A DNA stretch of 64,000 bases, from the NCBI GenBank assembly GCA_964016885.1, contig OZ024742.1, positions 115,816,001 through 115,880,000 on the forward strand. Direction: 5' to 3'. Made by a program: the position numbers and the translations under genes. The first letter of the stretch is position 1, and every line of letters begins with the position of its first letter. A model generated the notes under the pieces. That model was not told the DNA's origin, did not search any database, and worked only from the letters and a program-made list of their open reading frames with translations. This document shows positions 6,560-64,000 of the stretch, one piece after another. The DNA comes from Eledone cirrhosa (lineage: Eukaryota).

Positions 6560-9269
6560 GGCAGAGCAGAGCCTTGGTGGAAGGAACGACTGAGTGGTCA
6601 AATCAAGGAAATGAGAAATGACGTAGGAAAGCTTGAGTCACTACAGAATGGGACACTAAAAAACATAGGAACTAAAAATAGACTGGAAATAAAGTACAAA
6701 ACTAGGAGGAAAAAGCTAAATATTATCATAGAGGAACTGAAGCAACGCATTGTAGCAAAGAGTGCAAAAATCAGGCGATACGAGAACAGAGTCAGTCAGT
6801 ATAAACAGAACCGCATGTTCGACAACAACTAGAAGATGCTGTTTGGACAGCTTGAGGGGAAAGAAAGAGGCAACGACTTGATCCCTGAGGCGGAACAAAC
6901 TAAAACATTCTGGAGAGGAATATGGGAACAGGATGTTAGACATAATGACCAGGCAGGGTGGATTGAGACAGTACAGAGGGAGATCGGTGAGCAGGCACAC
7001 CAACAAACTGATTTGAGTATCACAGTTGAAACTCTTAAGGGGCAGGCAAAAAAACTAACCAACTGGAAATCACCAAGCCCAGATGGTGTGCAGGGGTATT
7101 GGATTAAAAATTTAACATCCCTCCACCCGAAACTGACGGCCATGTTCAATGACTGCTTGGTGTCGGGTGAGGTGCCAGAGTGGTTGACAAAAGGTACCAC
7201 AGTTCTGATAATGAAAGACCGAATCAAGGGTAATGATGTTACCAACTATAGACCTATCACATGTCTGCCCGTAATGTGGAAACTGTTGACGAGCATTGTG
7301 TCTGAGGAAATCTACCATCACCTCCACACAAATAACTTGTTACCGGACGAAAAGAAAGGATGCCGAAAGAAGTCACGTGGTACAAAGGACCAGTTACTTA
7401 TTGATAAGATGGTAATGGGGAATTGCAGGAGGAGACACACTGATCTTGCCATGGGATGGATAGACTACAGAACGGCATTTGACATGGTGCCTCACTCTTG
7501 GATCACCAAAAGCCTGGAGATCTTCAAGGTGGCAGATAACATCAGACAGTTGCTGGGCAGGAGTATGGGGTCCTGGGAGACAGAGTTGACATCGACTGGA
7601 GTATCCTTGGGAAGCGTGAAGATCAAGAGAGGTATCTTCCAGGGAGATAGCCTGTCCCCTCTGTTGTTTGTCCTTGCCCTGATGCCTTTGACCATTATGC
7701 TGCGAAGAGTGAGAGCAGGATACAAGTTGGGAAAGGGAGAGCTTACCATCAATCACCTCCTCTTCATGGACGATCTTAAGCTCTTCGGGAAGAGTGAGAA
7801 GGAGTTGGATGTGCTTGTTGACACTGTCCGCATTTTCAGCAGTGATATATGTATGCAGTTTGGTATTAGTAAGTGTGGAGTCATTGTGAGGTAGGTTGAG
7901 CAGAAGTAACGCAATCCAGATACCAACAGGTGAGATGATAAACGAAATTGACTCTGAGGAAGGATACAAGTATTTGGGCGTTCTGGAGGCTGATGGCATA
8001 AAGAATAAAAAAAATGAAGGAATTGTTAAGAACTGAATACATTCGGAGAATAAGGAGCGTATTGAAGTCACATCTGAACAGCAGAAATGCCATAAGCGCA
8101 GTAAATTCCCGAGCTGTGTCTATTATTAGGTACAGTGCGGGAATTCTGAGATGGAATGTTGCTGAACAAAAAGAAATGGATAGGAAGACTAGGAAGCTAT
8201 TGACTATCTACAACATGTTCCACAAGAAGAGTTATGTCGATAGACTCTGCCTAAGGAGAACTGAGGGTGGAAGAGGTCTTATCAGCATAGAGGACTGTGT
8301 TCAGATGGAGAAAAACAACCTATACAAATACGTGACTGATAGTAAGGAGCCAATGCTCAGAACTGTACTGAAGGAGGGGACAGTAGGCCAGGGGATGTCC
8401 AAGGAGGAAATAACATCAAGGAGAAAGAGCAGCCTTCAGGGAAAATCGCTTCATAGTACCTTCTTTGAGATAACTGAATTTAGAGATCCACAGACATGGA
8501 ACTGTTTGAGAAGAGGAGACCTCAAAAAGGCTACAGAAGGAATGTTAATGGCTGCGCAGAAGCAGGCCCTCAAAACGAAGTGGTTGAAACACCATATTTA
8601 CAAGGAGGAGGCTAGCCCACTGTGCAGGATATGTGGAGAGAGAGAGGAGACTGTGGCTCACATTGTATCCGAGTGTAAACACCTAGCCCAGACCCTCTAT
8701 AAGGGCTGGATACATGATGTGATGGGCAGGGTGATCCACTGGCACCTGTGCAAAGTAAACAATTTACCACATTCTGAGAAATGGTATGAGCATAGGCCAG
8801 AGGCGGTGATGGAGAACGATCAGGTGAAGGTGCTGTGGGATTTTAGGATACAGACGGACAAGAAACTGGAACACAATAGACCTGACCTGGTGGTAGTGGA
8901 CAAAGAAAAAAGAGCGTGTCTGATTATGGATGTGCCCTGCCCATTCGACACGAGAGTGCAAGAGAAGGAGAGGGAGAAAATGAACCGATACCAAGACTTA
9001 AAGTGGGAGGTAAAAAGGATTTGGAACTGCCATGAAGTCAAAGTGATCCCGATTGTCATAGGCGCACTGGGGATTATCTCCAAAAGTTTCCAGGGATGGT
9101 TAAAGAAAATCGGCCCCTTTACGCTTTTAGGAACGCTTCAAAAGGCATGCTTACTGGGAACAGCAAGAACCCTCCGATACGTCCTGAATATCTGAGGCTG
9201 CAGGTAGTGGCTTGATATTCATTCCAACGGACTTTCCAGTTAACCAACATCAATGACTGAGATTCAAGG
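6560..9269 (+). mobile_element. R4/Dong-clade non-LTR retrotransposon copy 1, 5'-truncated (RT + CCHC + RLE)
   Basis: ORF 6836-7894 has NWKSPSPDGVQGYWIK, NYRPITCL, GIFQGDSLSPLLF and HLLFMDDLKL. ORF 8014-9195 has CRICGEREETVAHIVSEC and NRPDLVV..D..CP.D..K..Y. The element ends in (TAA)n. Confidence 0.92.
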
Positions 9270-9296
9270 AATAATAATAATAATAATAATAATAAT

Positions 9297-9607
9297 GCTT
9301 TCTTTATTAATCACAAGGGTTGACGCAATGTAATACATTAAGGACAATACAGGACAATACAGGACGGTACAAATGTCTATTTCTGTGTGTAAGAAAAATA
9401 AAACACGATGTAACAAAATAGAAACATTGAAAAATTCCCCAATAGGAGGGACATTAGTGGATAAAGACCATTAAAAAAACCACGGTCACACTGACTACCA
9501 GGGCAAATACCCTCTCCCAGTTTTCACCTTCAGTTTACAGGCGCATACTCAGAGTAGGCCCATTAACTCGGGCCATGCTTGCCTCTCTCACCCATCTTTC
9601 ACCAATG
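9297..9607 (-). mobile_element. Tx1 3' terminal fragment flanked by TAA repeats
   Basis: Homologous to 19770-20090 and 24582-24900. A minus-strand AATAAA lies next to the (ATT)n tract, and TAA repeats occur at both ends. Confidence 0.85.
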
Positions 9608-16059: not shown

Positions 16060-16772
16060 TTGATGCTGAGTTTCTGCATGGATGGAGGGAAAATCAGTGA
16101 TGCAAAGACTGAGACGCTCCAGCTCTCTAGGAATCCTGCGAAGTGCAGTCCACATGTAAGTGGAATTCCACTGAAGCAGGTAGAGATATTCAAATATCGT
16201 GGGGTTGTGTTCACAGTTGATGGAAGGCAGAAGGCTGAATTAAATGCAAGAAGTGCAGGAGCTGGTGCAGCAATGTGCCAGCTTCGGCATTCAGTAATCA
16301 GAAGAAGGGAGGTAGGTGTAAAAGCCACAACGGTATCTTCAATTCTCTATTTGTGCAAACCCTTGCATAGGACCATAAATCTCGTGTAATGACTGAAAGA
16401 ATGCGATCACGAATATAAGCGGCCGAAATAGGGCTCCTCTGAAGGGACTTTCGAGTAACGTTAGTCAACAGAGTGCGTAGCTCGGGATCAGAGTGTCACT
16501 CCAGGTAGAGCCGCTACTTTTTCGAATCGAGAGATCACAGTTCCGATACTATGGACATGTGGTGAGAATATCTGAGGAAAAATTCGCTTGATAGATTTTA
16601 CAGGCAAATCCAAGCGGCAGGATACACAGTTGTAGATACCGAACAAGATGGTTGGATAACATCCATGAACTTGGATGGTCTCATGTGGGGATCCAGCCAG
16701 ATCAGTTGGAAACGGTTGCTCCTAACAGGACCCGCTGGAAGGAGTGTTGTTGACTCTGTCCCTGATCTCAGA
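16060..16772 (+). mobile_element. RTE-clade (Rex3/Expander-like) 3' fragment ending at (TAA)n
   Basis: Translation gives ISDAKTE..LKQVEIFKYRGVVFT..MTERMRSRI.AAE..EPLLFRIERSQFRYYGHVVR. Confidence 0.8.
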
Positions 16773-16833
<61 letters not shown>

Positions 16834-19722
16834 GCGAATGTAGCAATGTGCCAGCTTCGGCATTCAGTAATCAGAAGAAGGGAGGTAGGTGTAAAAGCCA
16901 CAACGGTATCTTCAATTCTCTATTTGTGCAAACCCAGTATTCGCCATTAAACAGTTCGAATAACGGTGAAATGGAGACTAGAACGTCATGTGACAGACTC
17001 TCACCCAACAGGTGCTCCCTGGCCCAGCAGCAGGGACCTGGCTATCAACCAAATACTGCTGGTGTCGGAGGAAGAAGAAGAAGGAAAGGGACCAGAACCA
17101 ACTGGACGAAAGAATTGAATAGAACTGTTATGCAATGTTACCTGAAAAGTAACCCCAAGGAGAAGGGCTATAGTAAACGGATGCATAACATCTGGAACGA
17201 GATTGGCCTATTTAAATTCGATGAACAAAAATTGGCCGGGCAGGCTCGGGTAATAAGAACTAATGGGTGGATAAGCGAGCTGGAACTGGAGGAACTGAAC
17301 AGAGAGATTAGCTTGGAGATGGAGGGTGGAGCATGCCAGGCAAACGAGCCAGTGGGAAATGAAGGTGAAGAGGTCGAGAGAACGGAGGAACCACCCGAAG
17401 CAGACAATGATCTGAATACTGAGATAAATAATACCTGGAACATAGATATGTCCACTGAGGAGATGAATGCTGACGGGCTAGGACAAGATTTGGTTGTTAT
17501 CCTAAATTTAGTGGTAGATAAATTGAACAATGATAGTGGGAGACCTATGAACCTAAGATTTGTAGAAAGGAAAAAGTTAAAAGAAACAACAACTAAGGTA
17601 AACAAAATCATCCCATACCTTGAGGCGAGGAGCCTTCACCAGTGCAACAATATCCTCAAAGTAACAGCAAATACGGTGAGGAAACTACTTGGTATAAAAA
17701 CGAGAGGAAACAACAGACAAGAAAGAGCAGAGCCTTGGTGGAAGAAACGACTGAGTGGTCAAATCAGGGAAATGAGAAATGACATTGGAAAGCTTGACTC
17801 CCTACTGAATGAGACACTAAAAAACATAGACACTAAAAATAGACTGGAAATAAAGTACAAAACTAGGAGGAAAAAGCTAAATATTATCATAGAGGAACTG
17901 AAGCAACGCATTGTAGCAAAGAGTGCAAAAATCAGGCGATACGAGAACAGAGTCAGTCAGTATAAACAGAACTGCATGTTCGACAACAACCAGAAGATAC
18001 TGTTTGGACAGCTTGAAGGGAAAGAAAGAGGCAACGACTTGATCCCTGACGCGGAACAAACTAAAACATTCTGGAGAGGAATATGGGAGCAGGATGTTAA
18101 ACGTAATGACCAGGCAGTGTGGATTGCCCTAATGCCCCTGACCAGTGTACTGCGAAAAGTGAGAGCAGGATACATGTTGGGAAAGGGAGAGCTTACCATC
18201 AATCACCTCCTCTTCATGGACGATCTTAAGCTCTTCGGGAAGAGTGAGAAGGAGTTGGATGTGCTTGTTGACACTGTCCATATTTTCAGCAGTGATATAT
18301 GTATGCAATTTGGTATTAGTAAGTGTGGAGTCATTGTGATGAGGAGGGGTAGGTTGAGCAGAAGTAACAGAATCCAGATACCAACAGGTGAGATGATAAA
18401 GGAAATTGACTGTGAGGAAGGATACAAGTATTTGGGCGTTCTGGAGGCTGATGGCATAAAGAACAGAAAAATGAAGGAATTGTTAAGACCTGAATACATT
18501 CGGAGAGTAAGGAGCGTATTGAAGTCACATCTGAACAGCAGAAAGGCCATAAGCGCAGTAAATTCCCGAGCTGTGTCTATTATTAGGTACAACGCGGGAA
18601 TTCTGAGATGGAATGTTGCTGAACAAAAATAAATGGATAGGAAGACTAGGAATCTATTGTCTATCTACAACATGTTCCACAAGAGGAGTGATGTCGATAG
18701 ACTCTACTTAAGGAGATCTGAGGGTCGAAGAGGTCTTATCAGCATAGAGGACTGTGTTCAGATGGAGAAAAACAACCTACACAATTACGTGACTGATAGT
18801 AAGGAGCCAATGCTCAGAACTGTACTGAAGGAGGGGACAATAGGCCAGGGGATGTTCAAGGAGGTAATAACATCAAGGAGAAAGAGCAGCCTTCAGGAAA
18901 AATCCCTTCATAGTACCATCTTTGAGAAAACTGAATTTAGAGATCCACAGACATGTTTGAAAAGAGGAGACCTTAAAAAGGCTACAGAAGGAATGTTAAT
19001 GGCTGCGCAGGACCAGGCCCTCAAAACGAAGTGGTTGAAACACCATATTTACAAGGAGGAGGCTAGCCCACTGGGCAGGATCTGTGGAGAGAGAGAGGAG
19101 ACTGTTGCTCACATTGTATCCGAGTGTAAACACCTAGCCCAGACCCACTATAAGGGCTGGAGACATGATGTGATGGGCAGGGTGATCCACTGGCACCTGT
19201 GCAAAGTAAACAATTTACCACATTCTGAGAAATGGTAAGAGCATAAGCTAGAGTCGGTGACAGTGAACGATCAGGTGAAGGTGCTGTGGGATTTTAGGAT
19301 ACAGACGGACAAGAAACTGGAACACAATAGACCTGACCTGGTAGTTGTGGACAAAGAAAAAAGATCGTGCCTGATTGTGGATGTGACCTGCCCATTCGAC
19401 ACGAGAGTGCAAGAGAATGAGAGGGAGAAAATTAACCGATACCAGGACTTAAAGTGGAAGGTAAAAAGGATTTGGAACTGCCATGAAGTCAAAGTGATCC
19501 CTATTGTCATAGGCACACTGGGGACTATCTCCAAATGTTTACCGGAATGGTTAAAGAAAATCGGCCCCTTCACGCTTTATGGAACGCTTCAAAAGGCATG
19601 CTTGCTGGGAAACACCAAACACGCTCTGATACGTCCTGAATATCTGAGGTTGCAGGTAGTGGCTTGATATTCATTCCAACAAACTTTCCAGTTAACTAAC
19701 ATCAATGACTGAGACTCAAGGA
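16834..19722 (+). mobile_element. R4/Dong copy 2, near full length, with an in-frame 711-bp RT deletion
   Basis: ORF 16665-18632 includes the N-terminal NWTKELNRTVMQCY..GYSKRMHNIW region and LFMDDLKL. CCHC and RLE fragments lie at 18633-19667. (TAA)n flanks both sides. Confidence 0.92.
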
Positions 19723-19730
19723 GTAATAAC

Positions 19731-19769
<39 letters not shown>

Positions 19770-19770
<1 letters not shown>

Positions 19771-22700
19771 TTTTCTTTATTAACCACATAGGGTTTACAT
19801 AAAGTAGACATTAAGGAGAGTGCAGGATAGTACAGCACGGTACAAATGGGCATGTATGCGTGTAAAATACAAAAACAGAGGATGTAACAAAAAAATAACA
19901 TTGAAAAATTCCCCAATAGGGAGGAGACTTCGGAGGGACATTTGTGGAGAAAGCCCATTAAAAGGCCACAGTGACCCTGACCACCAAGGCAAGTGCCCTC
20001 TCCCAGTTTTCCACCTTTAATTTACAGATAAATACTCAGTGTAGGCCCATTCAGTCGGGCCATTCTTGCTTCTCTCACCCATCTTTCAACAAAATGCTGA
20101 AAAAGTCAATCAGGGCATCACCGAAGAGGTAAGTGCTCGTCTTCACCCCTTTCAAACGTGTCCACTATACTATCTCTTTCGCCATGGCCACCAGACAGAT
20201 AAAAATTGCCTGCCCTTCCCGGCTAAAGGAAGAGGGCGGGGCAATCCTCACGATGGACTCAGATGATAGCCGGATCCGTCCTACACGCGGCAGCAGGTGT
20301 TCGACATAAACCCACAAGTCAGCAATTTTCGGACACTGGACGAGTGCGTGCAGGACGGTTTCGTCGCCCTCCGCGCATCTCGGACATGCCCGGCTGACGG
20401 CACCTCCATGCCTGTACAGTTTATCCCGAACTGGCAAGGCTCCTCGGTAGCACTCACCACAGAGCAGATGTCGCTGTGCATGGCAGCGATCCAGCCTCTG
20501 AAGACGGGCCCAAAGCATGCCGCCCTCAGGACTGCCGCTAGGTAACGATGTTCGACCCTATCGAAAGCTTTCGACTGATCTAAATTGATCAAGGACCCAC
20601 CCGTGCCAGGTTCCCTAGCTAACCTCTCTACGATGTATCGCATGTGGTGGAGGTTGTCGTGGCTGGATCTGTCGGGAATGGCACATGTCTGCGCCTCTCC
20701 CACCAGACCATCAACGACAAGCGCCAACCTCTTTGCTAGCACCTTGGCCAAAATCTTGAACTCTGTGTTTAGCAGAGTTATGGGCCTGAAATTATCAATG
20801 TTATCCCCCTTGTTCGGATCCTTTCTCAGCAGTACCACCGCTCCTCGGCTCACAGAACTGGGAATTCTCCCGTTCTGTTGCCAGTTGCAGTACACGTCCG
20901 CCAAGAGGCCTCCGAAAAAGTCTGGCATCTGTACGTAAAGTTCAGAGGGCAGACCATCCAAACCAGACGATTTACCCCTTGTGAAGCCAGTCATTGCCTC
21001 CCTTACTTCAGCGGCTGTTATCGGCTTTTCGCAACATTCCGCATCAGTGGCCGAGAGCCGCGGCAGTCCGTCGAGGTAGACACTAAAGTCCATCCCTCTA
21101 CCCGGCCCACCGCTGCCCCCGAACAGCTGAGTGAAGTGTCGCTGAAAAGCTTCACACATTTTCCCGGGATCGAGTAGCCTGCGCCCGTCGTCGTACGCCA
21201 AAGACCGGATCGCGGCTTTGTTGCCACGACGCGCCTCCGCCACTCGGGCCCATTGAACGGCTTTCGTCCCCTCGTGTCTGAGAGCACGCACCCTAGCTCT
21301 GACAACGCAGCCTTCGTGCTTTACATTGAAGAATTGGTCAAGGGCCAATTTCGCCGCAAGCACGTGGGTCGCAATGCCTTTGCTAAGCGCCTCGTCTAAT
21401 TTTCTAACTAGTTCTCCCTCTGGTCTATTTTTCTCTATTGCTAAAGCCTTACTAAACCTAATGGAGTCTATTCTAATCGCTCTTTTCAGAGAAAACCACC
21501 ACTTGTTGTTGACGATGGCCCCCGTCAACGCCCGCTTAACTAGTTCGCTAATCCGGTCTCTGTAGGCCTTGCGCGCTGGTAAGGACGCGTTTAGCTTCCA
21601 GTAGCCGGGTCCTCGTCTATGAAGCCTATCTAAATCAAGCACACAGATCACGAATCTGTGGTCCGTGTAGCTGACTATCTTGAATTGTGGACAGCCTATG
21701 GTAGACCTATCTATTTCCCTACAAATTACTCTATCTAGATATGATCTGGATGACCCAATACGATTTGTCCAAGTCCACATTGGCACATTCGGGAAATCCA
21801 ATCGGTACCTGTCAGACACTTCAAAACGCCTGAGCAGGTTGGTGAGGCTCTTGCACCCTCTACCCCTAACCGTTAATCCCACACAGTCCCAGCGTGCATC
21901 TAAGATCCCGTTCCAGTCGCCCACTAACACTAAAGAGCGGGACGTTCCAATAATGTTCTCCAGAAACGGAAGAAATCACCCCGTCCTGCTCCTGTGGGGG
22001 TATAGACGGCCAGTAACCTGAAAGCTTTCCCGTCTCCGCTGTTCACGTCCAGCATAACCAACTTACCTGCTGGGTCCAGGAAGATGGCCCGTATGGCAAG
22101 TCCAAACCTCTCCGAAAAAGCACAGCAACTCCACCCCCCGATCCCGGACGGCTGGGAGATGCGTACACATCGTAACCGCCGAAGATCGGTCCGAAGGCCC
22201 GTGCTTCGGAGATTCTGGTCTCGCTAATGGCCACTACATCTATGTTTAGTGACCTGAGGTCGTTGAGCAGGTGGCCTTGCTTCCATGACGACCCTAAACC
22301 ACGCGCATTTATGCTGCCTATTCTGAGTGAGGGCATGTTGAAAAGGAGTGGAAAAGATGGGAAAGACCACTTACCTTACTTCTCGTAGAGGAAGGACGGT
22401 TTTTCCATCCTTTTCACTGCTTGTGGCCTCCGCAGGAAAGATGTCCTTATAAATCCTCCTGGAGAGTTCTTTGCGGAAGTCTCTGATGTCTTTGGGAAAT
22501 TTTGTTTTAGTGTCATGTACGTTTTCTGTGTGATGCGAGTGATTTGTATGTGTGGAGGTGGTGTGGATTTGGGGTTATTGTGTAGTCTTTTCCTGTGATG
22601 CTGGTGTTGTGTTAGATGTAGTGTAATAATTGCTTGTTGTTCAAATTTAATGCTGTGTAGTGTGTATCGTTTTGGTTGTTTTGTTTTGTTTGCGTTTGTT

Positions 22701-24582: not shown

Positions 24583-26040
24583 CTTTCTTTATTAACCACA
24601 AGGGTCTACATAAAGTAGATATTAGGACAGTACAGGACAATACAGGGCGGTACAAATGGGCATGTCTGCGTGTAAAAAACAAGAAGCAGAGGATGTAATA
24701 ATAGAATAATGAAAATATTCCACAATAGGGGGAGACTTCCGAGGGACATTCGTGGAGAAAGCCCAATAAAAAGCCACAGTGACCCTGACCACCAGGGCAA
24801 GTGTCCTCTCCCAGTTTTCCACCTTTAATTTACAGACACATACTCAGAGCCATTCTTCACTCGGGCCATTCTTGCCTCTCTCACCCATCTTTCAATAAAA
24901 TGCTGGGAAGAGAGCACTTCCCTTTCTACCCTGATTTTCCTTTTCAAATGAAATTTGAAAAAGGTAACCAGGGCATCACTGAAGAGGTAAATGCTCGTCT
25001 TCAGAGCTTTCAAACGTGTCCACCATACTATCTCTTTCGCCATGGCCACCAGACAGATAAAAACTGCCCGCCCTTCCCGGCTAAAGGAAGAGGTCGGGGC
25101 AATGCTCACGATGGACTCAGCAGATAGCTGGATCCGTCCTGCACGCGACAGCAGGTGTTCGACATAACCCACAAGTCAGCAATGCTCGGGCACTGGACAA
25201 GAGCGTGCAGGACGGTTTCGTCTCCCTACGCGCATCTCGGACATGCCCGACTGACGGCACCTCCATGCCTGTAGAGTTTATCCCGAACTGGCAAAGCTCC
25301 TCGGTAACACTACCAAGCCAGGGATTTCTGGAAGTTGTCCATAGGCCCCAGCCCGAAAGTTCTTCCGAACAGATTGGCTAGTTGATTTTCGTCGACGCCT
25401 AGAGTTTCCCCAAGTACATCGTCGCTCTTCCCCTCCACTAATCCTCTATAGAACGCCAAGGTGGAGTTTCCACCGATCACATTGCCCGATTGGTCGAGGG
25501 CTGTGAGCGCCTGAAGACATTCCAGTCTCCAAGCGCTCTTGCTCGGTCTTCGCTTGACTCAGCACTCCATCTCCGTCAAGGAGACGAGCTGGGGAAAGAC
25601 GCGTCTAGCAAACGGAGACCACACCTGATCACCGTCGAGGAAGAGGTGGAGATGTCGTAGCCTTAGCACGTGTCTGCGAATTACCAGCCACGGCATTCCC
25701 AGCCCTCCACGTAGCGGGTGTTGACAGCAGATGGACCGCCTGACCATCGGAGCGCGTCCCTTCCACAAAAAGCGAAAAAGCAAACGCCCCAGCGCAGTTA
25801 GGCGGAGCTTAGGACAAGGTACGACGGTCAGGCGGTAGTAGATGGCGGACGCGATATACACGTTAGCCACCTCCGCTCGACCTTTCAGGGATGGCTTCCT
25901 CTCGGCCCATTTCTGGGTGAGAGAAGCCACCCTGCTCGTCACCTCATCCCAGTTTTTGTCCATCTGGAGATCCGGACCGAACCAGACCGCGAGCAATTTA
26001 ACTGGTCCGTCCAGCGACCGACGACGCTGTTGGACGGTGA
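24582..26040 (-). mobile_element. Tx1 copy C, 5'-truncated, flanked by (TAA)n on both sides
   Basis: ORFs 25559-25996 (SLKGRAEVAN..HPLRGGLGMP) and 24825-25172. The 3' UTR is homologous to copy B. Confidence 0.9.
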
Positions 26041-26087
26041 TATAATAATAATAATAATAACAATAATAATAATAATAATAATAATAA

Positions 26088-26798
26088 GGGGCAGGCCCTC
26101 AAAACGAAGTGATTGAAACACCATATTTACAAGGAGGAGTCTTGCCCACTGTGGAGGATCTGTGGAGAGAGAGAGGAGACTGTGGCTCACATTGTATCCG
26201 AGTCTAAACACCTAGCCCAGACCCACTATAAGGGCTGGAGACATGATGTGATTGGCAGGGTGATCCACTGGCACCTGTGCAAAGTAAACAATTTACCACA
26301 TTCTTAGAAATGGTATGAGCATAAGCCAGAGGCGGTGATAGAGAACGATCAGGTGAAGGTGCTGTGGGATTTTAGGATACAGACGGACAAGAAACTGGAA
26401 CACGATAGACCTGACCTGGTGGTTGTGGACAAAGAAAATATATCGTGCCTGATTGTGGATGTGGCCTGCCCATTCGACACGAGAGTGCAGGAGAAGGAGA
26501 GGGAGAAAATTAACCGATACCAGGACTTAAAGTGGGAGGTAAAAAGGATTTGGAACTGCCATGAAGTCAAAGTGATCCCGATTGTCATAGGCGCACTAGG
26601 GACTATCTCCAAATGTTTCCAGTGATGGTTAAAGAAAATCGGCCCCTTCACGCTTTTTGGAACGCTTCAAAAGGCTTGCTTGCTGGGACCAGCAAGACCC
26701 TCCGATAGGTCCTGAATATCTGAGGCTGCAGGTAGTGGCTTGATATTCATTCCAACAAAGAATCCAGTTGACTAACATCAATGACTGAGACTCAAGGA
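26088..26798 (+). mobile_element. R4/Dong copy 3, 5'-truncated (CCHC + RLE + 3' UTR)
   Basis: ORFs 26113-26307 and 26335-26625 are near-identical to copies 1 and 2. TAA repeats flank both sides. Confidence 0.92.
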
Positions 26799-26821
26799 GT
26801 AATAACAATAATAATAATAAT

Positions 26822-27475
26822 GTCGTCTTTATTAACCACAAAGGATTTACAAAAAATACATTAAGGCTAGCATACGACGTGACAATGTATGTTTCTGCGT
26901 GCTAAAAATGACTATAAAACGAAAACAAAGATGTAACGAAGAATAGAAACAATAGAAAATTCCGCAATAGCTGAGCGACTTCCGCGGGTACTCGAGGAAA
27001 AAGCCCACAAAATCCACAATCAAATGACCACTATGGCAAATGCCTTCTCACGGGCGTTCTCCGTCAATCAGCAGGTACACGGCCCATTCACTCGCCTATT
27101 TCACCCATCTTTCAACAAATTGCATTAAAGGCCACACTTATTTATCCACCCTTATTTACATCTTCAAGCGAAACCTGAAGAATTTAATCAGGAGGTCGTC
27201 GAAGAAGTAAGTGTCAGTTTTCAGCTCATTCAGACCTCTCCACCATACGGCATTCTTTCACCATGAGTACCAGACAGACAAACACAGCCTGCCCTTCTTA
27301 GCTAGGTAAGGGCGTTCTGGCGAATGTTGACGATGTCCCTCAGTTGACAGTCGGATCCGTCCTTATACCTGACAGTAGGTGATCGAGATAAACCCACACG
27401 CCAGTTATATTCGGAAACTGGATGAGTGCCTGCGCGACGGTTTCGTCACCGTGTGCATATCTCGGACATACCTGT
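26822..27475 (-). mobile_element. Older, more diverged Tx1 3' fragment (copy D)
   Basis: Encodes CPRYAHGDETVAQALIQFP and has the 3' end tctttattaaccaca next to (TAA)n. Confidence 0.8.
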
Positions 27476-46368: not shown

Positions 46369-46790
46369 CGGCCGGGTGCACCGAAAACGATAAACGGAAT
46401 CGTTTTCGGTGCACCCGGCCGATTAACCCACTCGATATGAAAATTGGGGTACTCAGTCGTTAATATGCATAAGGAAAGTATATACATTCGGACGTTCAAT
46501 CATCTGACAGGAAGGTATACGTTGCTGACGATAGCTAATAAGCTTGAAACTAGTACAGCGTTCCTTTGTCAGTGTTGAACAAACGAGCAACAGTGGTTGC
46601 TAGACACTACGGTTTAATACGGGATGTTTGTTTACAAACAGACCGAGCATTATAATAAATGTTCGGCGAATCCATACGTACATATATATATATATGTGTG
46701 CATGTATGTATATATATATACATACTACTGTACGTCTGTATACATATATGTATGTACGTATACATACTTATATATATTTATATATATATG
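46369..46790 (+). mobile_element. Dispersed single copy of the 466-bp hammerhead repeat family (opposite orientation to the array), with a terminal 23-bp fold-back
   Basis: Collinear with the reverse complement of the array unit (ggaaagtatatac..gttcaa..tgtcagtgttgaacaaa..gtttgtttacaaac..tactgtacgtctgtatac). Confidence 0.85.
46519..46561 (+). ncRNA. Minimal type I hammerhead ribozyme, family A
   Basis: acguug CUGACGA u agcu aaua agcu u GAAA cuag UA cagcgu; cleavage triplet GUA. Confidence 0.8.
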
Positions 46791-52839: not shown

Positions 52840-53770
52840 GGGTAGTTAGCGAGAAGGTAAGGTTTAAATAAGATCCCCTTATTTTGGGCATAATTTAACA
52901 AGCATAAACAAAAATACAAGATTTGTTTTGGAAAATACGACAGAGTATCGAGAAGAAAGGCAAAGATTGAATTCGGGGAAAAAATGATAGAGAATGAAGA
53001 ATGGACTAAGGAATTAAAATGGTGAGAAGAATGAAGAAATATTTGTACGTTACATTATACCATGAAAGCAGCCATCCCGTAATAGGAATTTGGCGGTTCT
53101 GATTTTTTCGTACTTGTAGGGTTTATCTTATATATGGAGATAGAAATGGGGGGTTGACCGCGAACCAGCATGATGTAGGGCGGGGGAAGATAGGAGGGAG
53201 CAGAGGTTAAGAGTTTAAATACAGTCCTCAAAATTTGGGGTATAATTTAGCCAGCATAAAAAAATATATTTAAAAAATATATAAGAAGGATTTTTGTTTT
53301 GAAAATACGACAGGATTAAGGTTGGGGTAGTTAGCGAGAAGGTAAGGTTTAAATAAGATCCCCGTATTTTGGGCATAATTTAACAAGCATAAACAAAAAT
53401 ACAAGATTTGTTTTGGAAAATACGACAGAGTATCGAGTAGAAAGGCAAAGATTGGATTCGGGGAAAAAATGATAGAGAATGAAGAATGGACTAAGGAATT
53501 AAAATGGAGAGAAGAATGAAGAAATGTTTGTACGTTATATTATACCATGAAAGCAGCCATCCTGGAATAGGAATTTGGCGTTTATGATTTGTTCGTACTT
53601 GTAGGGTTTATCTTATATATAGAGATAGAAAAAGGGAGGGGGTCACCGCGTACCAGCATGATGTAGGGGGGGGGGAGATAGGAGGGAGCAGAGGTTAAGA
53701 GTTTAAATACAGTCCTCGAAATTTGGGCTATAATTTAGCCAGCATAACAAAATATATTTAAAAAATATAT
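52840..53770. repeat. Tandem duplication with a 485-bp period (about 1.9 copies) and an internal sub-repeat
   Basis: GGGTAGTTAGCGAGAAGGTAAGG occurs at 52840 and 53325. Confidence 0.9.
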
Positions 53771-54820: not shown

Positions 54821-54826
<6 letters not shown>

Positions 54827-55260
54827 TAAGTATGTATACGTACATACATATATGCAGACAGACGTACATTAGTATGCATATATATACATACATGACCACA
54901 TATGTATATGTACGTATGGATTTACCGAGCATTTATTACAATGCTCGGTTTGTTTGTAAACACACATCCCGAATTAAGGCGTACAGTGTCTAGCAACCAT
55001 CGTTGCCCTCTTGTTCAACACAACGATGGTTGCTAGACACTGTACGGCTTAATTTGGGATGTTTGTTTACAAACAAACCGAGCATTATAATAAATGCTCG
55101 GTAAATCCATACGTACATATATACATGTGTGCATGTATCTATATATATGCATACTACTGTACGTCTGTATGCATATATGTATGTATGTATACATACTTGT
55201 ATTTAAGTAACAGCCGTACTAAGAGTGAGAAATGAAATTTCGTTTCATTTTTTCCGTTTA
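54821..55260. repeat. Inverted (fold-back) duplication of part of the hammerhead repeat family, arms about 185 bp, spacer 15 bp
   Basis: 54821-55005 is the reverse complement of 55021-55205. The sequence is homologous to 46580-46780 and to the array unit, and stops before the hammerhead. Confidence 0.88.
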
Positions 55261-59211: not shown

Positions 59212-60790
59212 CTATGTGCTAGGTTTAAAATAGAAGAAGGAACTCAGGATTTTGTGTTGGCAAGAGGAGAAAATTTCCGATTTCCCGTTAAGCAGGTTCA
59301 GTTTAGAGTGTATTATGGCATGGCATTCCAGTAAACACAGTTCACAACTCCCGCTCTGCGGTCAGTATGGCGTGGATCTAGTAAGTTTCCTCTAAAAAAG
59401 TTTGTATGGGGTATTATTATTTTTTAAAAAGGAGATGTATCCCGCTAGTGAGGTGGCATTCTTATGTCTATCGTGACTAAATGTGCACATATGCGCGTTA
59501 TATCTAGTTTTAAATGTATTGGACGTTGATCCTATATATGTTTTGGTAGAGTTGTGTGTGGTTACGTCACATGCATATACGATATGTTTCATGAGGCAAG
59601 CCCACCTTAGGGGACAGTTACTACTCTGCCTACAATTGCAACTGCGGGTTCGATCAGTTAGCGTACCTCCCGAACTTTGGTTACTAGCATTATCACTAGG
59701 TGCCTCTATATCATTAGATGGCTCAGTAATGCTATTATGTTGCCTATTTTCCAGTGTAGTCGGTTGCTGGTGGTTACCTGCCATTTTAATTGTTTCGAAA
59801 CCTTCCCTAGTTTTCCAAATGTTCGTGCGTGCTAGGTGTGATGCGAGGTTAGGTGTGGTCGCATAGGATAATTTAATCACGTTTTTGTTAATTATGATGC
59901 GATATCTATGGCCTGTTGCGAAGTGTTTTTCTAATAATGAGAAGAATATTCTGGGGTGGTTAGTGACGACCTCAGAGTTAAAAGGTGGGTTAAAACACAT
60001 GTTTTTCCTTCTTCTATTTTTCTTATCTGTGGGGTGAGTCTCATTACTGTGCGTACTATTTTGTAGGGTTCCGTTATTAACATTAGTGGCGCTGTCTGTT
60101 TTGCTTATGCCCGGATGGTTTATATTCATGGCATGATCATTTGCTGCTTTAGAGTTGTGGTGAGGGACTCTAGTATTGCCTCTACGTGGTTTACATTTAG
60201 CTGGGTTACCGCCATTAGGCTTCTTAATATTATTCTTGCCTCTACGTTGGTTAGGCTTTGCGGCCATACTATGTGTGATTATGTTGGTAGGTTTCACACT
60301 TATGGTTTGGTAGTCCTTATGTATATATGATAATCTATTCCCGTAACCAGATTCTGCTAGGGCCTTGTCATAATACTCTGCATTGGAGTTGAAGATACTC
60401 TCATTACAGGACAGTCTGCTAATTCTATTAGAGACCCCCTTGGGAATAGCATTTAGGACTGATTTGGGGTGGTTGGAGCTGGCGTTTACACATGTTAGTC
60501 TATCATTAGGTTTATGGTAGGGTGCAAATGTTTTAGTTTCGAGGTCTAGGGTGGCGTCTAGGAAGTTTACTGTTTTGTCATTTACATCTATGGTAATATT
60601 AGGTTAAAGCCTTTCAAGAACCTACGTAACTGTTTCCTAGTGCTTTCTATATTGTACTTTTTATACTCGAGAGTGAAGAGGGCGTCGTCACGATATAAGC
60701 CGCCCTTCAGGTGCGGTATTGTCTCATGTAACTCCTTTAAGCGGTACAATCCTACCAGGTCCGTTACTTGTGCAGAGTCACTAGATCCCA
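59212..60790 (-). mobile_element. Penelope-like element (Naiad-type): 3' part of RT plus GIY-YIG, 5'-truncated
   Basis: Motifs [77 protein letters not shown] and CELCLLE..LLN..E..SCQH. Confidence 0.9.
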
Positions 60791-60846: not shown

Positions 60847-60901
<55 letters not shown>

Positions 60902-61198
60902 TGAAACAAAATGAAAACGAAATTTCATTTCTCACTCTTAGTATGGCACTTACTTAAATGTAAGTATGCATGTATACGTACATACATATATGTATACAGA
61001 CGTACAGTAGCATGCACATATATATATATATATACATATATATATACATATGCATACAGGTACACATACATATATGCACGTATCAGTTTAGCGGCGCTAA
61101 CGTCGCTTTGTTCGTTTGTAAACAAACTGAACAGCCTGAATTTATGCCATACGGTGTTAAGGCAACCACGTCACCTTTTTGTTCAACACTGACACAGG

Positions 61199-61243
61199 AA
61201 CGATGTACTAGTTTCAAGCTTGTTAGCTATCATCAGCACCGTT
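61199..61243 (-). ncRNA. Minimal type I hammerhead ribozyme, family A, array unit 1
   Basis: Minus strand: aacggug CUGAUGA u agcu aaca agcu u GAAA cuag UA caucguu; cleavage predicted after GUA, between 61206 and 61205. Confidence 0.85.
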
Positions 61244-61664
61244 TACCCATCTGCCAGATAGTTGAACGTTCGAAAGTATATACTTTCCTTATGAAAATTA
61301 ACGGCTGAGCAGCCTAATTTGCATATTGAGTGAGTTAAATCGGTCAGGCATACCGGAAACGATAAATTGAAACAAAATGAAAACGAAATTTCATTTCTCA
61401 CTCTTAGTATGGCACTTACTTAAATGTAAGTATGCATGTATACGTACATACATATATGTATACAGACGTACAGTAGCATGCACATATATATATATATATA
61501 CATATATATATACATATGCATACAGGTACACATACATATATGCACGTATCAGTTTAGCGGCGCTAACGTCGCTTTGTTCGTTTGTAAACAAACTGAACAG
61601 CCTGAATTTATGCCATACGGTGTTAAGGCAACCACGTCACCTTTTTGTTCAACACTGACACAGG

Positions 61665-61709
61665 AACGATGTACTAGTTTCAAGCTTGTTAGCTATCATC
61701 AGCACCGTT
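61665..61709 (-). ncRNA. Minimal type I hammerhead ribozyme, family A, array unit 2
   Basis: Identical to unit 1, offset +466. Confidence 0.85.
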
Positions 61710-62130
61710 TACCCATCTGCCAGATAGTTGAACGTTCGAAAGTATATACTTTCCTTATGAAAATTAACGGCTGAGTAGCCTAATTTGCATATTGAGTGAG
61801 TTAAATCGGTCAGGCATACCGAAAACGATAAATTGAAACAAAATGAAAACGAAATTTCATTTCTCACTCTTAGTATGGCACTTACTTAAATGTAAGTATG
61901 CATGTATACGTACATACATATATGTATACAGACGTACAGTAGCATGCACATATATATATATATATACATATATATATACATATGCATACAGGTACACATA
62001 CATATATGCACGTATCAGTTTAGCGGCGCTAACGTCGCTTTGTTCGTTTGTAAACAAACTGAACAGCCTGAATTTATGCCATACGGTGTTAAGGCAACCA
62101 CGTCACCTTTTTGTTCAACACTGACACAGG

Positions 62131-62175
62131 AACGATGTACTAGTTTCAAGCTTGTTAGCTATCATCAGCACCGTT
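62131..62175 (-). ncRNA. Minimal type I hammerhead ribozyme, family A, array unit 3
   Basis: Identical to unit 1, offset +932. Confidence 0.85.
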
Positions 62176-62479
62176 TACCCATCTGCCAGATAGTTGAACG
62201 TTCGAAAGTATATACTTTCCTTATGAAAATTAACGGCTGAGCAGCCTAATTTGCATATTGAGTGAGTTAAATCGGTCAGGCATACCGAAAACGATAAATT
62301 GAAACAAAATGAAAACGAAATTTCATTTCTCACTCTTAGTATGGCACTTACTTAAATGTAAGTATGCATGTATACGTACATACATATATGTATACAGACG
62401 TACAGTAGCATGCACATATATATATATATATATATATATATAGTGTCCGCGCATTGCCTGGAGACTCAGCTGAGAATAG

Positions 62480-62776: not shown

Positions 62777-64000
62777 CGATCAGTCGCATATTTTGGCGTG
62801 GGACACTATTTATTAAATTTAAGATGAATACTATCTACGACAGTAATGCCACAACTACAGTCATGTTGAATAACTGGTTATTCTTCTAACTATATCTTCT
62901 AAAGACACCTTTTATTCGAATACGTAGAGATATCCGACTAAATACATAATTCATTTAACAAGGATTTTCTACAAACAGCATGGCTGAATACAACATCAAC
63001 AACAAAATTAAGGATGTATCGAAGACAAACAACGAGAAAGGTAAACAAAATGTATTCAGTTGTAGCTACAGAAGAAACCGAAATTATAAATCGCATTTCT
63101 CTTGGAGGTGCGAAATTAATGACGATTTATCTAATTGTTCTAAAATGGCAAACACAAATCTCTCCATTGGCTATATGAAGAGAATGAAGCTACACTGGGA
63201 CGAAATAAATCCAGAACTAAATCACTTCACAGCGAAACAATTACGCCAACAACCGACGTTTGTTGAACGTAAAAATAAGATAAATATTATTAATTGTAAC
63301 TCCCCCACAACAAACATGGAATCAACAACAAGTGCTACAGGTCGCCATGATAATAGACTTCCTAGCAGCCAGGTCGAACATTGCCTTGACACAACTATGC
63401 CTGTAAGAAACTTGACACCACGTGTACCATCTAACTCTACCTCGAATGCTGGGGAAAACACTATCGATAATAATAATAATCGAAGAAATAATAATAATAA
63501 TAATCGAAGACATTTGACACCACGTGTAACATCCGAGTCTATCTCGACTCTTGTGGACAATACTATCGATAATGATAATCAAAAGTATAAACAATTGAAA
63601 ATTTCGCTCAACGAAATCTTCCAGAGAGAAATTAATTCATGTATAAATATCTTTCTTGCTGCACGTATTAAAACAAGAATATTTAGTAAAAAACCAAATA
63701 ATGAAATATTACGTGCTATTGACGGAATAGGGAATGAATATTTACGACGGATAAAATCCCCAACATTTTGGCAAATCAACGCCTGTTTATATGTCTTAGC
63801 AACGACAGTGAAGCATTATCTTGGTGATAGCAGTGATATTAACATGAACAAAACACCACCAAAAATATCATCATATATGACTAAAATAGAAAAAAAGATT
63901 GCTGACCTACGAAAAACCATAGGATATGTGACAATGCTCCTTACATGCAAACAAACACAATAGAACCTCACTCCTCACCAACAAAGAGTGAAAAATAAAA
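62777..64000 (+). mobile_element. 5' part of an R4-clade-like retrotransposon (N-terminal ORF 62980-63963), starting after (TACA)n
   Basis: FSWRCEINDDLSNC..GYMKRMKLHWDEINP..KQLRQQ aligns by eye with NWTKELNRTVMQCY..GYSKRMHNIWNE..QKLAGQ of Dong copy 2. KIEKKIADLRKTIG resembles RLSGQIREMRNDIG. RT lies outside the window. Confidence 0.65.

What the first reader, a model, noticed from the sequence alone, without database searches (positions are those of the whole stretch)
46369..46790. Diverged dispersed copy shows the family-A ribozyme structure is conserved
Seen: this opposite-orientation copy keeps the core (CUGACGA, a change at the variable position 7), stem II (loop AAUA vs AACA) and the GUA site. 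Stem I covaries: ACGUUG/CAGCGU here vs ACGGUG/CAUCGU in the array. A second hairpin at the homologous position has a different sequence but is still a stem (ACCGAGCATT..AATGCTCGGT at 54924-54949 vs AGCGGCG-CTAA-CGTCGCT at 61090-61107). Inference: RNA structure, not sequence, is under selection, and at least two subfamilies were mobile.
Basis: partly seen in the sequence, partly recalled or inferred. Interest (0 to 1): 0.75.

Follow-up and report, generated by a model that had tools for sequence, protein, structure and literature searches.

The report
Hammerhead retrozyme with conserved RNA fold
This is one ageing copy of a very abundant non-coding repeat whose subfamilies have changed up to a third of their letters yet keep a hammerhead (predicted self-cutting) motif and the same predicted RNA fold, and whose insertions end in the pattern typical of Penelope-type jumping genes, which likely copy it; the class is known, the family and this evidence appear not to be described.

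Summary
46399-46773 (+) is a real, single, neutrally decaying monomer of a non-LTR retrozyme family: type I hammerhead, 76% like the 466-nt array at 60896-62442. The motif has 40,333 exact genomic matches against 6 in control; I resolved 15 subfamily groups in two clades about 64% alike. The stem I change is a U·G/G·U swap, and the cited second hairpin (54924-54949) lies in a third, ribozyme-less insertion. Wider tests support it: the core is invariant across subfamilies (11 of 11 vs 156 of 367 other columns); 57-87 predicted pairs survive between subfamilies against 8-19 in neutral simulations (0 of 60 reach this); single copies decay evenly. A column-wise test was only moderate. Insertions sit in (TA)n and 39 of 40 two-armed ones pair one long with one short end, the Penelope 'tail' footprint. 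A U6-like box lies at a fixed distance from a TATA-like motif. Cleavage, expression, circularity and the partner enzyme are untested. This scan reported the same kind of element elsewhere in this genome.

The parts
46369..46398 (-). short inverted (fold-back) piece of the monomer junction at the 5' end of the insertion
   Evidence: blastn self-match; 23-bp hairpin with 46399-46421
46399..46773 (+). one retrozyme monomer of subfamily A2, ending at the short 3' end (Y) in (TA)n
   Evidence: 10 differences in 374 aligned columns from the A2a majority sequence, the last at the TA junction
46436..46447 (+). U6-like upstream 12-mer, mutated in this copy at 46440; also the 5' arm of a predicted hairpin
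   Evidence: 11 of 12 columns invariant in 15 subfamilies; same box at -77 to -79 of U6 and U6atac genes
46478..46484 (+). TATA-like motif 43 nt from the start of the 12-mer
   Evidence: spacing 43 in 15 of 15 subfamilies
46519..46561 (+). type I hammerhead: helix I 46519-24/46556-61, core 46525-31, helix II 46533-44 with U·U at its base, GAAA 46546-49, palindrome ACTAGT 46549-54, predicted cut after 46555
   Evidence: sequence
46586..46601 (+). hairpin after the hammerhead, kept with changed pairs in all subfamilies
46608..46614 (+). 5' strand of a long-range helix; its partner lies between the Y and X ends and is absent from this Y-ended copy
   Evidence: circular folds; consensus alignment shows two-sided changes
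46626..46639 (+). small conserved hairpin
   Evidence: -11.5 kcal/mol on +; loop shared with fuller A1 copies
46672..46766 (+). TA/TATG-rich segment, predicted long hairpin, variable length between subfamilies
60896..62442 (-). 3.3-unit array of subfamily A1 (466 nt), cores starting at 62168, 61702, 61236, ending at X in (TA)n
   Evidence: full units differ at 1-2 of 466 sites

Best explanation
The stretch is a single, evenly decaying copy of a high-copy non-coding repeat family with a type I hammerhead motif, whose source lineages likely were selected for one branched RNA fold and likely are copied into (TA)n by a Penelope-like retrotransposon enzyme. Steps: (1) tandem source loci would be transcribed, possibly from a U6-like promoter inside each unit (inferred); (2) neighbouring hammerheads would pair through ACUAGU and cut multimers to monomers that close into circles (inferred from the known class); (3) an enzyme pair would nick (TA)n and start reverse transcription at two fixed internal sites of an uncut (circular or multimeric) RNA, giving arms ending at X or Y (end pattern shown, enzyme inferred); (4) inserted copies decay neutrally (shown), and only lineages that keep the fold amplify again (conservation shown, cause inferred). 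This copy, with one weak-helix-III ribozyme and a changed U6-like box, is likely a dead end.
For: 40,333 motif matches vs 6 control. Whole-length homology of 419-538-nt monomers. Core 11/11 and palindrome 4/4 invariant vs 156/367 other columns. Pair counts on 22 distinct hand-picked rows. Fold retention 87/89, 75/77, 59/89, 68/104, 57/88 vs simulation means 18.8, 14.5, 9.5, 12.0, 8.2; 0 of 60 each. Sense strand folds more stably than antisense in 7 of 7 monomers. Two-sided changes in a helix whose strands lie about 190 nt apart. Ends: 77 X, 77 Y, 32 other, 2 at locus edge of 188 arms; 144 of 154 X/Y ends run into TA; 39 of 40 classifiable back-to-back pairs are X+Y. 5' ends not piled at the cut site (2 of 183). 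Arms of one insertion closer to each other than the other-locus median in 33 of 34. Matches the PLE tail and two internal RT start sites of PMC11167929 and the retrozyme model of PMC7229834.
Against: No RNA, cleavage or circle data. Column-wise test on a sequence-only alignment is moderate: A-B P 0.007-0.12, A2-A1 P about 0.31; many one-sided changes break a predicted pair; G·U vs A·C counts show no strand bias (15/10, 14/16, 15/13). 'Pairs with a two-sided change' (9) did not exceed shuffles (220 of 500). Most two-sided changes sit on one long A-B branch, so independent events are few. No Penelope element with a homologous end was found in 25 + 13 loci. X-Y distance (about 55-75 nt) exceeds the 30-40-bp tail in the papers. 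19 of 59 back-to-back pairs had an unclassified end. Genomic ends cannot tell a circle from an uncut multimer. In the PLE studied in vitro, ribozyme cleavage was not needed for insertion, and 8 of 9 Xenopus dimers did not cleave.
Confidence: 0.8

Rival explanations
1. The element is a non-autonomous Penelope-like element copied from linear, uncut read-through transcripts; the fold is kept for enzyme binding and the ribozyme acts only late or as a regulator, with no circle.
For: 155 of 188 arms span the cut site (sample biased towards this) and ends ignore it; median arm 1.04 units; in vitro PLE insertion used unprocessed RNA.
Against: Core and palindrome are invariant over about 36% divergence; the extended helix I joins the two ends of a cut monomer in all circular folds; arms of up to 7 units from one source; circles are shown for coral, mussel and axolotl retrozymes.
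Confidence: 0.3
2. The hairpins are kept by DNA-level processes (fold-back repair, template switching in inverted repeats) or by low divergence, not by selection on RNA.
For: AT-rich palindromic segment; frequent inversions at insertions; no G·U/A·C strand bias; antisense also folds better than shuffles (z -3.2 to -8.6, 12 shuffles).
Against: Unpaired catalytic core is the most conserved part; long-range helix covaries; G·U, U·G and A-U all used at one pair while mismatches stay near 1-2%; neutral simulation loses the fold.
Confidence: 0.07
3. The conserved TATGCAAATTAG box is kept only as one arm of an RNA hairpin, not as a promoter element.
For: It pairs with the downstream AT-rich box in all circular folds; spacing to TATA is 43 vs 47-49 in U6/U6atac; T4-T6 runs inside the unit would stop Pol III.
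Against: Its 5' arm is nearly invariant while the 3' arm varies; same 12-mer at the same place before three independent U6 loci and the best U6atac locus, and not within 110 nt of 18 distinct U1/U2 upstream regions; chance about 0.001 per monomer; spacing fixed in 15 of 15 subfamilies.
Confidence: 0.45

Closest known systems
Metazoan non-LTR retrozymes (Cervera and de la Pena 2020, PMC7229834; passages, one Results section and Discussion read)
   Same: Short, low-GC, non-coding units with one type I hammerhead, from monomers to long tandems; highly paired predicted circle; one-pair helix III with palindromic tetraloop as in axolotl HHR_Amex1 and U·U at the base of helix II as in HHR_Amex2.
   Different: Units 420-480 nt, above their 170-400 nt; expression and circles untested here; that paper only suggests PLEs as mobilisers, whereas here the insertion ends carry the PLE footprint; cephalopod occurs 0 times in its text.
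Animal retrozymes as non-autonomous PLE derivatives (Li, Clavereau, Pollet 2026, bioRxiv 10.64898/2026.07.22.740005; parts 1-3 of 5 read, abstract to end of Discussion; supplements closed)
   Same: Dispersed monomers plus arrays, many families per genome, co-occurrence with PLEs.
   Different: Their link rests on co-occurrence and pLTR homology in Xenopus; here no homologous pLTR was found, and the link rests on end structure.
Penelope-like elements, tail and inverted copies (Craig et al. 2021, PMC8557442, passages; Frangieh et al. 2024, PMC11167929, main text read; Cervera and de la Pena 2014, PMC4209133, passages)
   Same: Partial tandems, inverted 5'-truncated arms, two 3' ends with a tail at one end only, (TA)n or AT-rich targets, hammerhead upstream of the ends.
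   Different: No ORF; tail about 55-75 nt; hammerhead has the canonical 6-bp helix I and 4-bp helix II, not the long helix II of minimal PLE motifs.
Newt satellite 2 (snRNA-type promoter; Coats et al. 1994, seen only as a citation and one sentence in PMC2220036; the paper was not held)
   Same: Hammerhead satellite with an internal snRNA-like promoter.
   Different: Newt promoter is reported as Pol II; the box here matches this genome's U6/U6atac, not U1/U2, upstream regions.

Membership tests
Type I hammerhead ribozyme (canonical metazoan form) | Core CUGANGA, GAAA, NUH | tested here: met
   46525-46555; invariant in 15 subfamilies
Type I hammerhead ribozyme (canonical metazoan form) | Helix I about 6 bp and helix II about 4 bp, with covariation | tested here: met
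Type I hammerhead ribozyme (canonical metazoan form) | G10.1-C11.1 pair | tested here: not met
   U·U in clade A including this copy; G-C in clade B (11,334 matches have a non-T at 10.1); U·U is reported for axolotl HHR_Amex2
Type I hammerhead ribozyme (canonical metazoan form) | Helix III of 1-2 bp with palindromic loop (dimer type) | tested here: met
   ACTAGT invariant; definition in PMC4209133. Unconstrained cofolding did not give the double hammerhead as minimum
Type I hammerhead ribozyme (canonical metazoan form) | Loop 1-loop 2 tertiary contact | tested here: inconclusive
   loop 2 AAYA and loop 1 U/A letters conserved; contact not modelled
Type I hammerhead ribozyme (canonical metazoan form) | Score above an Rfam hammerhead gathering threshold | tested here: not met
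   0 matches in the window
Type I hammerhead ribozyme (canonical metazoan form) | Self-cleavage | not testable with these tools
   no assay
Non-LTR retrozyme | Short tandem units each with a type I hammerhead | tested here: met
   family level; this copy is a lone monomer
Non-LTR retrozyme | Non-coding, low GC | tested here: met
   no frame of 150 aa over this copy or the array; GC 0.36 in both 2-kb bins
Non-LTR retrozyme | Expressed as linear and circular monomers | not testable with these tools
   no RNA holder listed
Non-autonomous Penelope-like element | Two 3' ends, tail at one end of inverted insertions, microsatellite target | tested here: met
Non-autonomous Penelope-like element | Sequence shared with the terminal repeat of an autonomous PLE | tested here: inconclusive
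   none in 25 + 13 loci drawn from one protein search; other PLE clades not searched
U6-type (Pol III type 3) promoter | Upstream element as in host U6 genes | tested here: met
U6-type (Pol III type 3) promoter | Element-to-TATA spacing as in host U6 genes | tested here: not met
   43 vs 47-49 nt

The most novel reading that the evidence does not exclude
The unit is a self-contained RNA replicon of the genome: a U6-type promoter captured inside a circular RNA, restored upstream of the next unit each time a Penelope enzyme dimer copies more than once round the circle from two fixed start sites into both ends of a cut (TA)n target; the hammerhead exists to carry an external promoter along, and the whole 420-480-nt fold has been selected through at least 15 lineages.
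Probability: 0.3. Interest if true: 0.7.

Novelty: new member of a known kind. Interest (0 to 1): 0.48.

Why it matters
How animal retrozymes are transcribed and which enzyme moves them is still mostly proposed. This family gives tens of thousands of copies in many subfamilies, a conserved fold, two mapped copy-start sites and a candidate promoter, so each step can be tested with defined mutants. The single copy flagged is itself ordinary.

Tried and rejected
Rfam scan: 0 matches. Expression: no RNA holder listed; contigs of 4 runs of unknown kind laid on 46400-46675 gave cover in 2 and only subfamily variants; no evidence on expression. Neighbouring PLE at 59392-60603 as parent: no end homology; 2 of 25 of its loci hold a retrozyme copy (one is this window), as shared TA targeting could give. 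Ends at the ribozyme cut site: rejected, 2 of 183 5' ends and 2 of 188 3' ends. Pol III termination as the source of the 3' end: fits X only, not Y. U1/U2-type promoter: TCAG-like match present in clade A, absent in clade B. Selection on single copies: rejected (copies were the best DNA matches to this copy, so rates are underestimates). G·U/A·C strand test: uninformative. Unconstrained cofold of two hammerheads did not return the double form. The 485-nt repeat at 52840-53624 has no hammerhead motif. A faulty anchor shifted some clade B rows; corrected. Not in print: searches 'hammerhead ribozyme + retrozyme + octopus' and 'octopus + hammerhead ribozyme' listed no description of such a family, judged from listings and one paper's passages; supplements of these papers were not read and may hold cephalopod motifs. 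Search on mollusc U6 promoters was not informative. Newt promoter paper not held.

Full report
Observation. The stretch 46399-46780 matches each unit of the 466-nt array (60896-62442) at about 76% on the opposite strand. It carries a type I hammerhead motif at 46519-46561. Two details are not: the second hairpin it cites (54924-54949) belongs to a third insertion without ribozyme, and the array hairpin was read on the non-ribozyme strand; on the ribozyme strand it has an A·C mismatch. The stem I change is U·G to G·U. Helix III is a single pair closed by the palindrome ACTAGT, and the base of helix II is U·U. Rfam gave no match at gathering score.

Family. The own genome (3.0 Gb; an animal, likely a cephalopod by my inference, not tested) gave 3,469 first-look candidates for this copy and 802 for the array, 40 scored each. 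A hammerhead pattern has 40,333 exact matches against 6 for the reversed control; 11,334 lack T at 10.1. From 130 fetched loci, tandem monomers of 419-538 nt align over their whole length. I grouped copies into 15 subfamily majority sequences (1-22 arms each): this copy's clade A2 is 81% like A1 and about 64% like clade B.

Is structure selected? Between subfamilies the 11 core and 4 palindrome columns are invariant against 156 of 367 other columns. On 23 hand-picked copies (22 distinct) the hammerhead helices are 95.7% paired, covariation score 0.452 against 0.226 shuffled, 0 of 500; slid registers reach at most 50.2%; the count of pairs with a two-sided change (9 of 20) is not above shuffles, and related rows inflate these measures. 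Genome-wide the flagged pair is U·G in 7,633 copies, U·U in 237, purine·K in 15,738, of which the first 100 listed are 70 G·U, 29 A-U and 1 A·G by hand count; these are copies of a few lineage events. Seven monomers folded as circles give the same branched structure and the sense strand is more stable in 7 of 7 (12 shuffles each). Predicted pairs outside core and TA block retained within 3 columns: 87/89, 75/77, 59/89, 68/104, 57/88, against means of 8-19 when the same substitutions are placed at random (0 of 60 in each). A helix whose strands lie about 190 nt apart and the helix closing the tail domain show two-sided changes. Against: a strict column test on the sequence-only alignment is moderate (two-sided changes kept 13/18, 10/16, 14/18, 11/19; overall P 0.007-0.12 for A-B, about 0.31 for A2-A1), many helices shift register, and G·U/A·C counts show no strand bias. 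Within subfamily A2a, single copies change the core as often as other sites (4/242 vs 117/6147), so selection acts on source lineages. This copy has 10 listed differences in 374 columns, none in the core or helices I and II proper.

How it moves. In 117 non-overlapping loci (114 of 130 after dropping 16 overlaps, plus 3 window segments) 188 arms end at two homologous sites: X (77) and Y (77), about 55-75 nt apart; 32 end elsewhere, 2 at a locus edge; 144 of 154 X/Y ends run into (TA)n. Of 59 back-to-back pairs, 40 have both ends classified: 39 X+Y, 1 X+X, 0 Y+Y. The two arms are closer to each other than the other-locus median in 33 of 34 testable pairs. 5' ends do not gather at the cut site (2 of 183). 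This matches the PLE tail present at one end only (PMC8557442, passages) and the two internal start sites shown in vitro (PMC11167929, main text). An autonomous PLE family of this genome also ends at two sites in (TA)n in the few copies seen but shares no end sequence with the retrozyme, so the partner is unidentified. The flagged copy ends at Y, the array at X, and 54821-55255 is a Y+X pair.

Promoter candidate. A 12-mer is nearly invariant in all subfamilies (11 of 12 columns) and lies 43 nt before a TATA-like motif in 15 of 15. The same box stands at -77 to -79 before U6 genes at three independent loci (of 15 loci fetched, 7 have it there, 6 have it displaced by an insertion, 2 lack it there) and before the best of 10 U6atac loci, with spacing 47-49, and not before 18 distinct U1/U2 upstream regions. 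It is also an arm of a predicted hairpin, so the reading is open. This copy has the box changed at 46440.

Comparison and verdict. The element fits non-LTR retrozymes (PMC7229834; Li et al. 2026) and works like a non-autonomous PLE. Cleavage, expression and circularity are untested; no RNA run was listed. Two paper searches found no description of such a family in octopus (listings only, supplements unseen). Earlier notes of this scan describe the same footprints and a U6-like box for arrays elsewhere in this genome; they were read after my own tests and are not independent support. New member of a known kind; interest 0.48.

Noticed in passing
window 59392-60603 (-), loci L174-L211: Fragment of a large C-terminal GIY-YIG Penelope-like family (46,662 first-look candidates); open frames up to about 850 aa; its own hammerhead-like motif about 255 nt before the frame, 5.1-kb period in L202, and two 3' ends roughly 95 nt apart in (TA)n. 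Clade not determined.
   Followed up: partly
G000:C1:49584284-49588112 (one search list) and C1:14044535-14051131 (one search list): Arrays in which a variant alternates every second unit, as a dimeric template or dimer-unit expansion would give.
   Followed up: no
L137, L138, L140-L143 (U6 cluster on C19): U6 genes whose upstream box is pushed to about -270 by a roughly 190-nt insertion at the TATA motif.
   Followed up: no
L146-L173: U1 and U2 genes of this genome share AATTA near -90, TCAGT near -57 and a TATA-like motif near -31, unlike its U6 genes.
   Followed up: no
L098, L076, L068, L093, L110 (subfamily A2b): Subfamily with an 8-nt deletion between the TATA motif and the hammerhead that still amplified (arms of 7.5 and 2.3 units in L098).
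   Followed up: partly
window 52840-53624: Two-copy 485-nt direct repeat, 96% alike, no hammerhead motif.
   Followed up: no
window 6563-9300, 16566-19780, 26032-26850, 62959-63963: Several non-LTR retrotransposon copies flanked by (TAA)n; the last resembles the N-terminus of an R4/Dong-type element (recalled, not tested).
   Followed up: no
L203-L206: A second, more distant PLE family with another hammerhead variant and the same short end in (TA)n.
   Followed up: no
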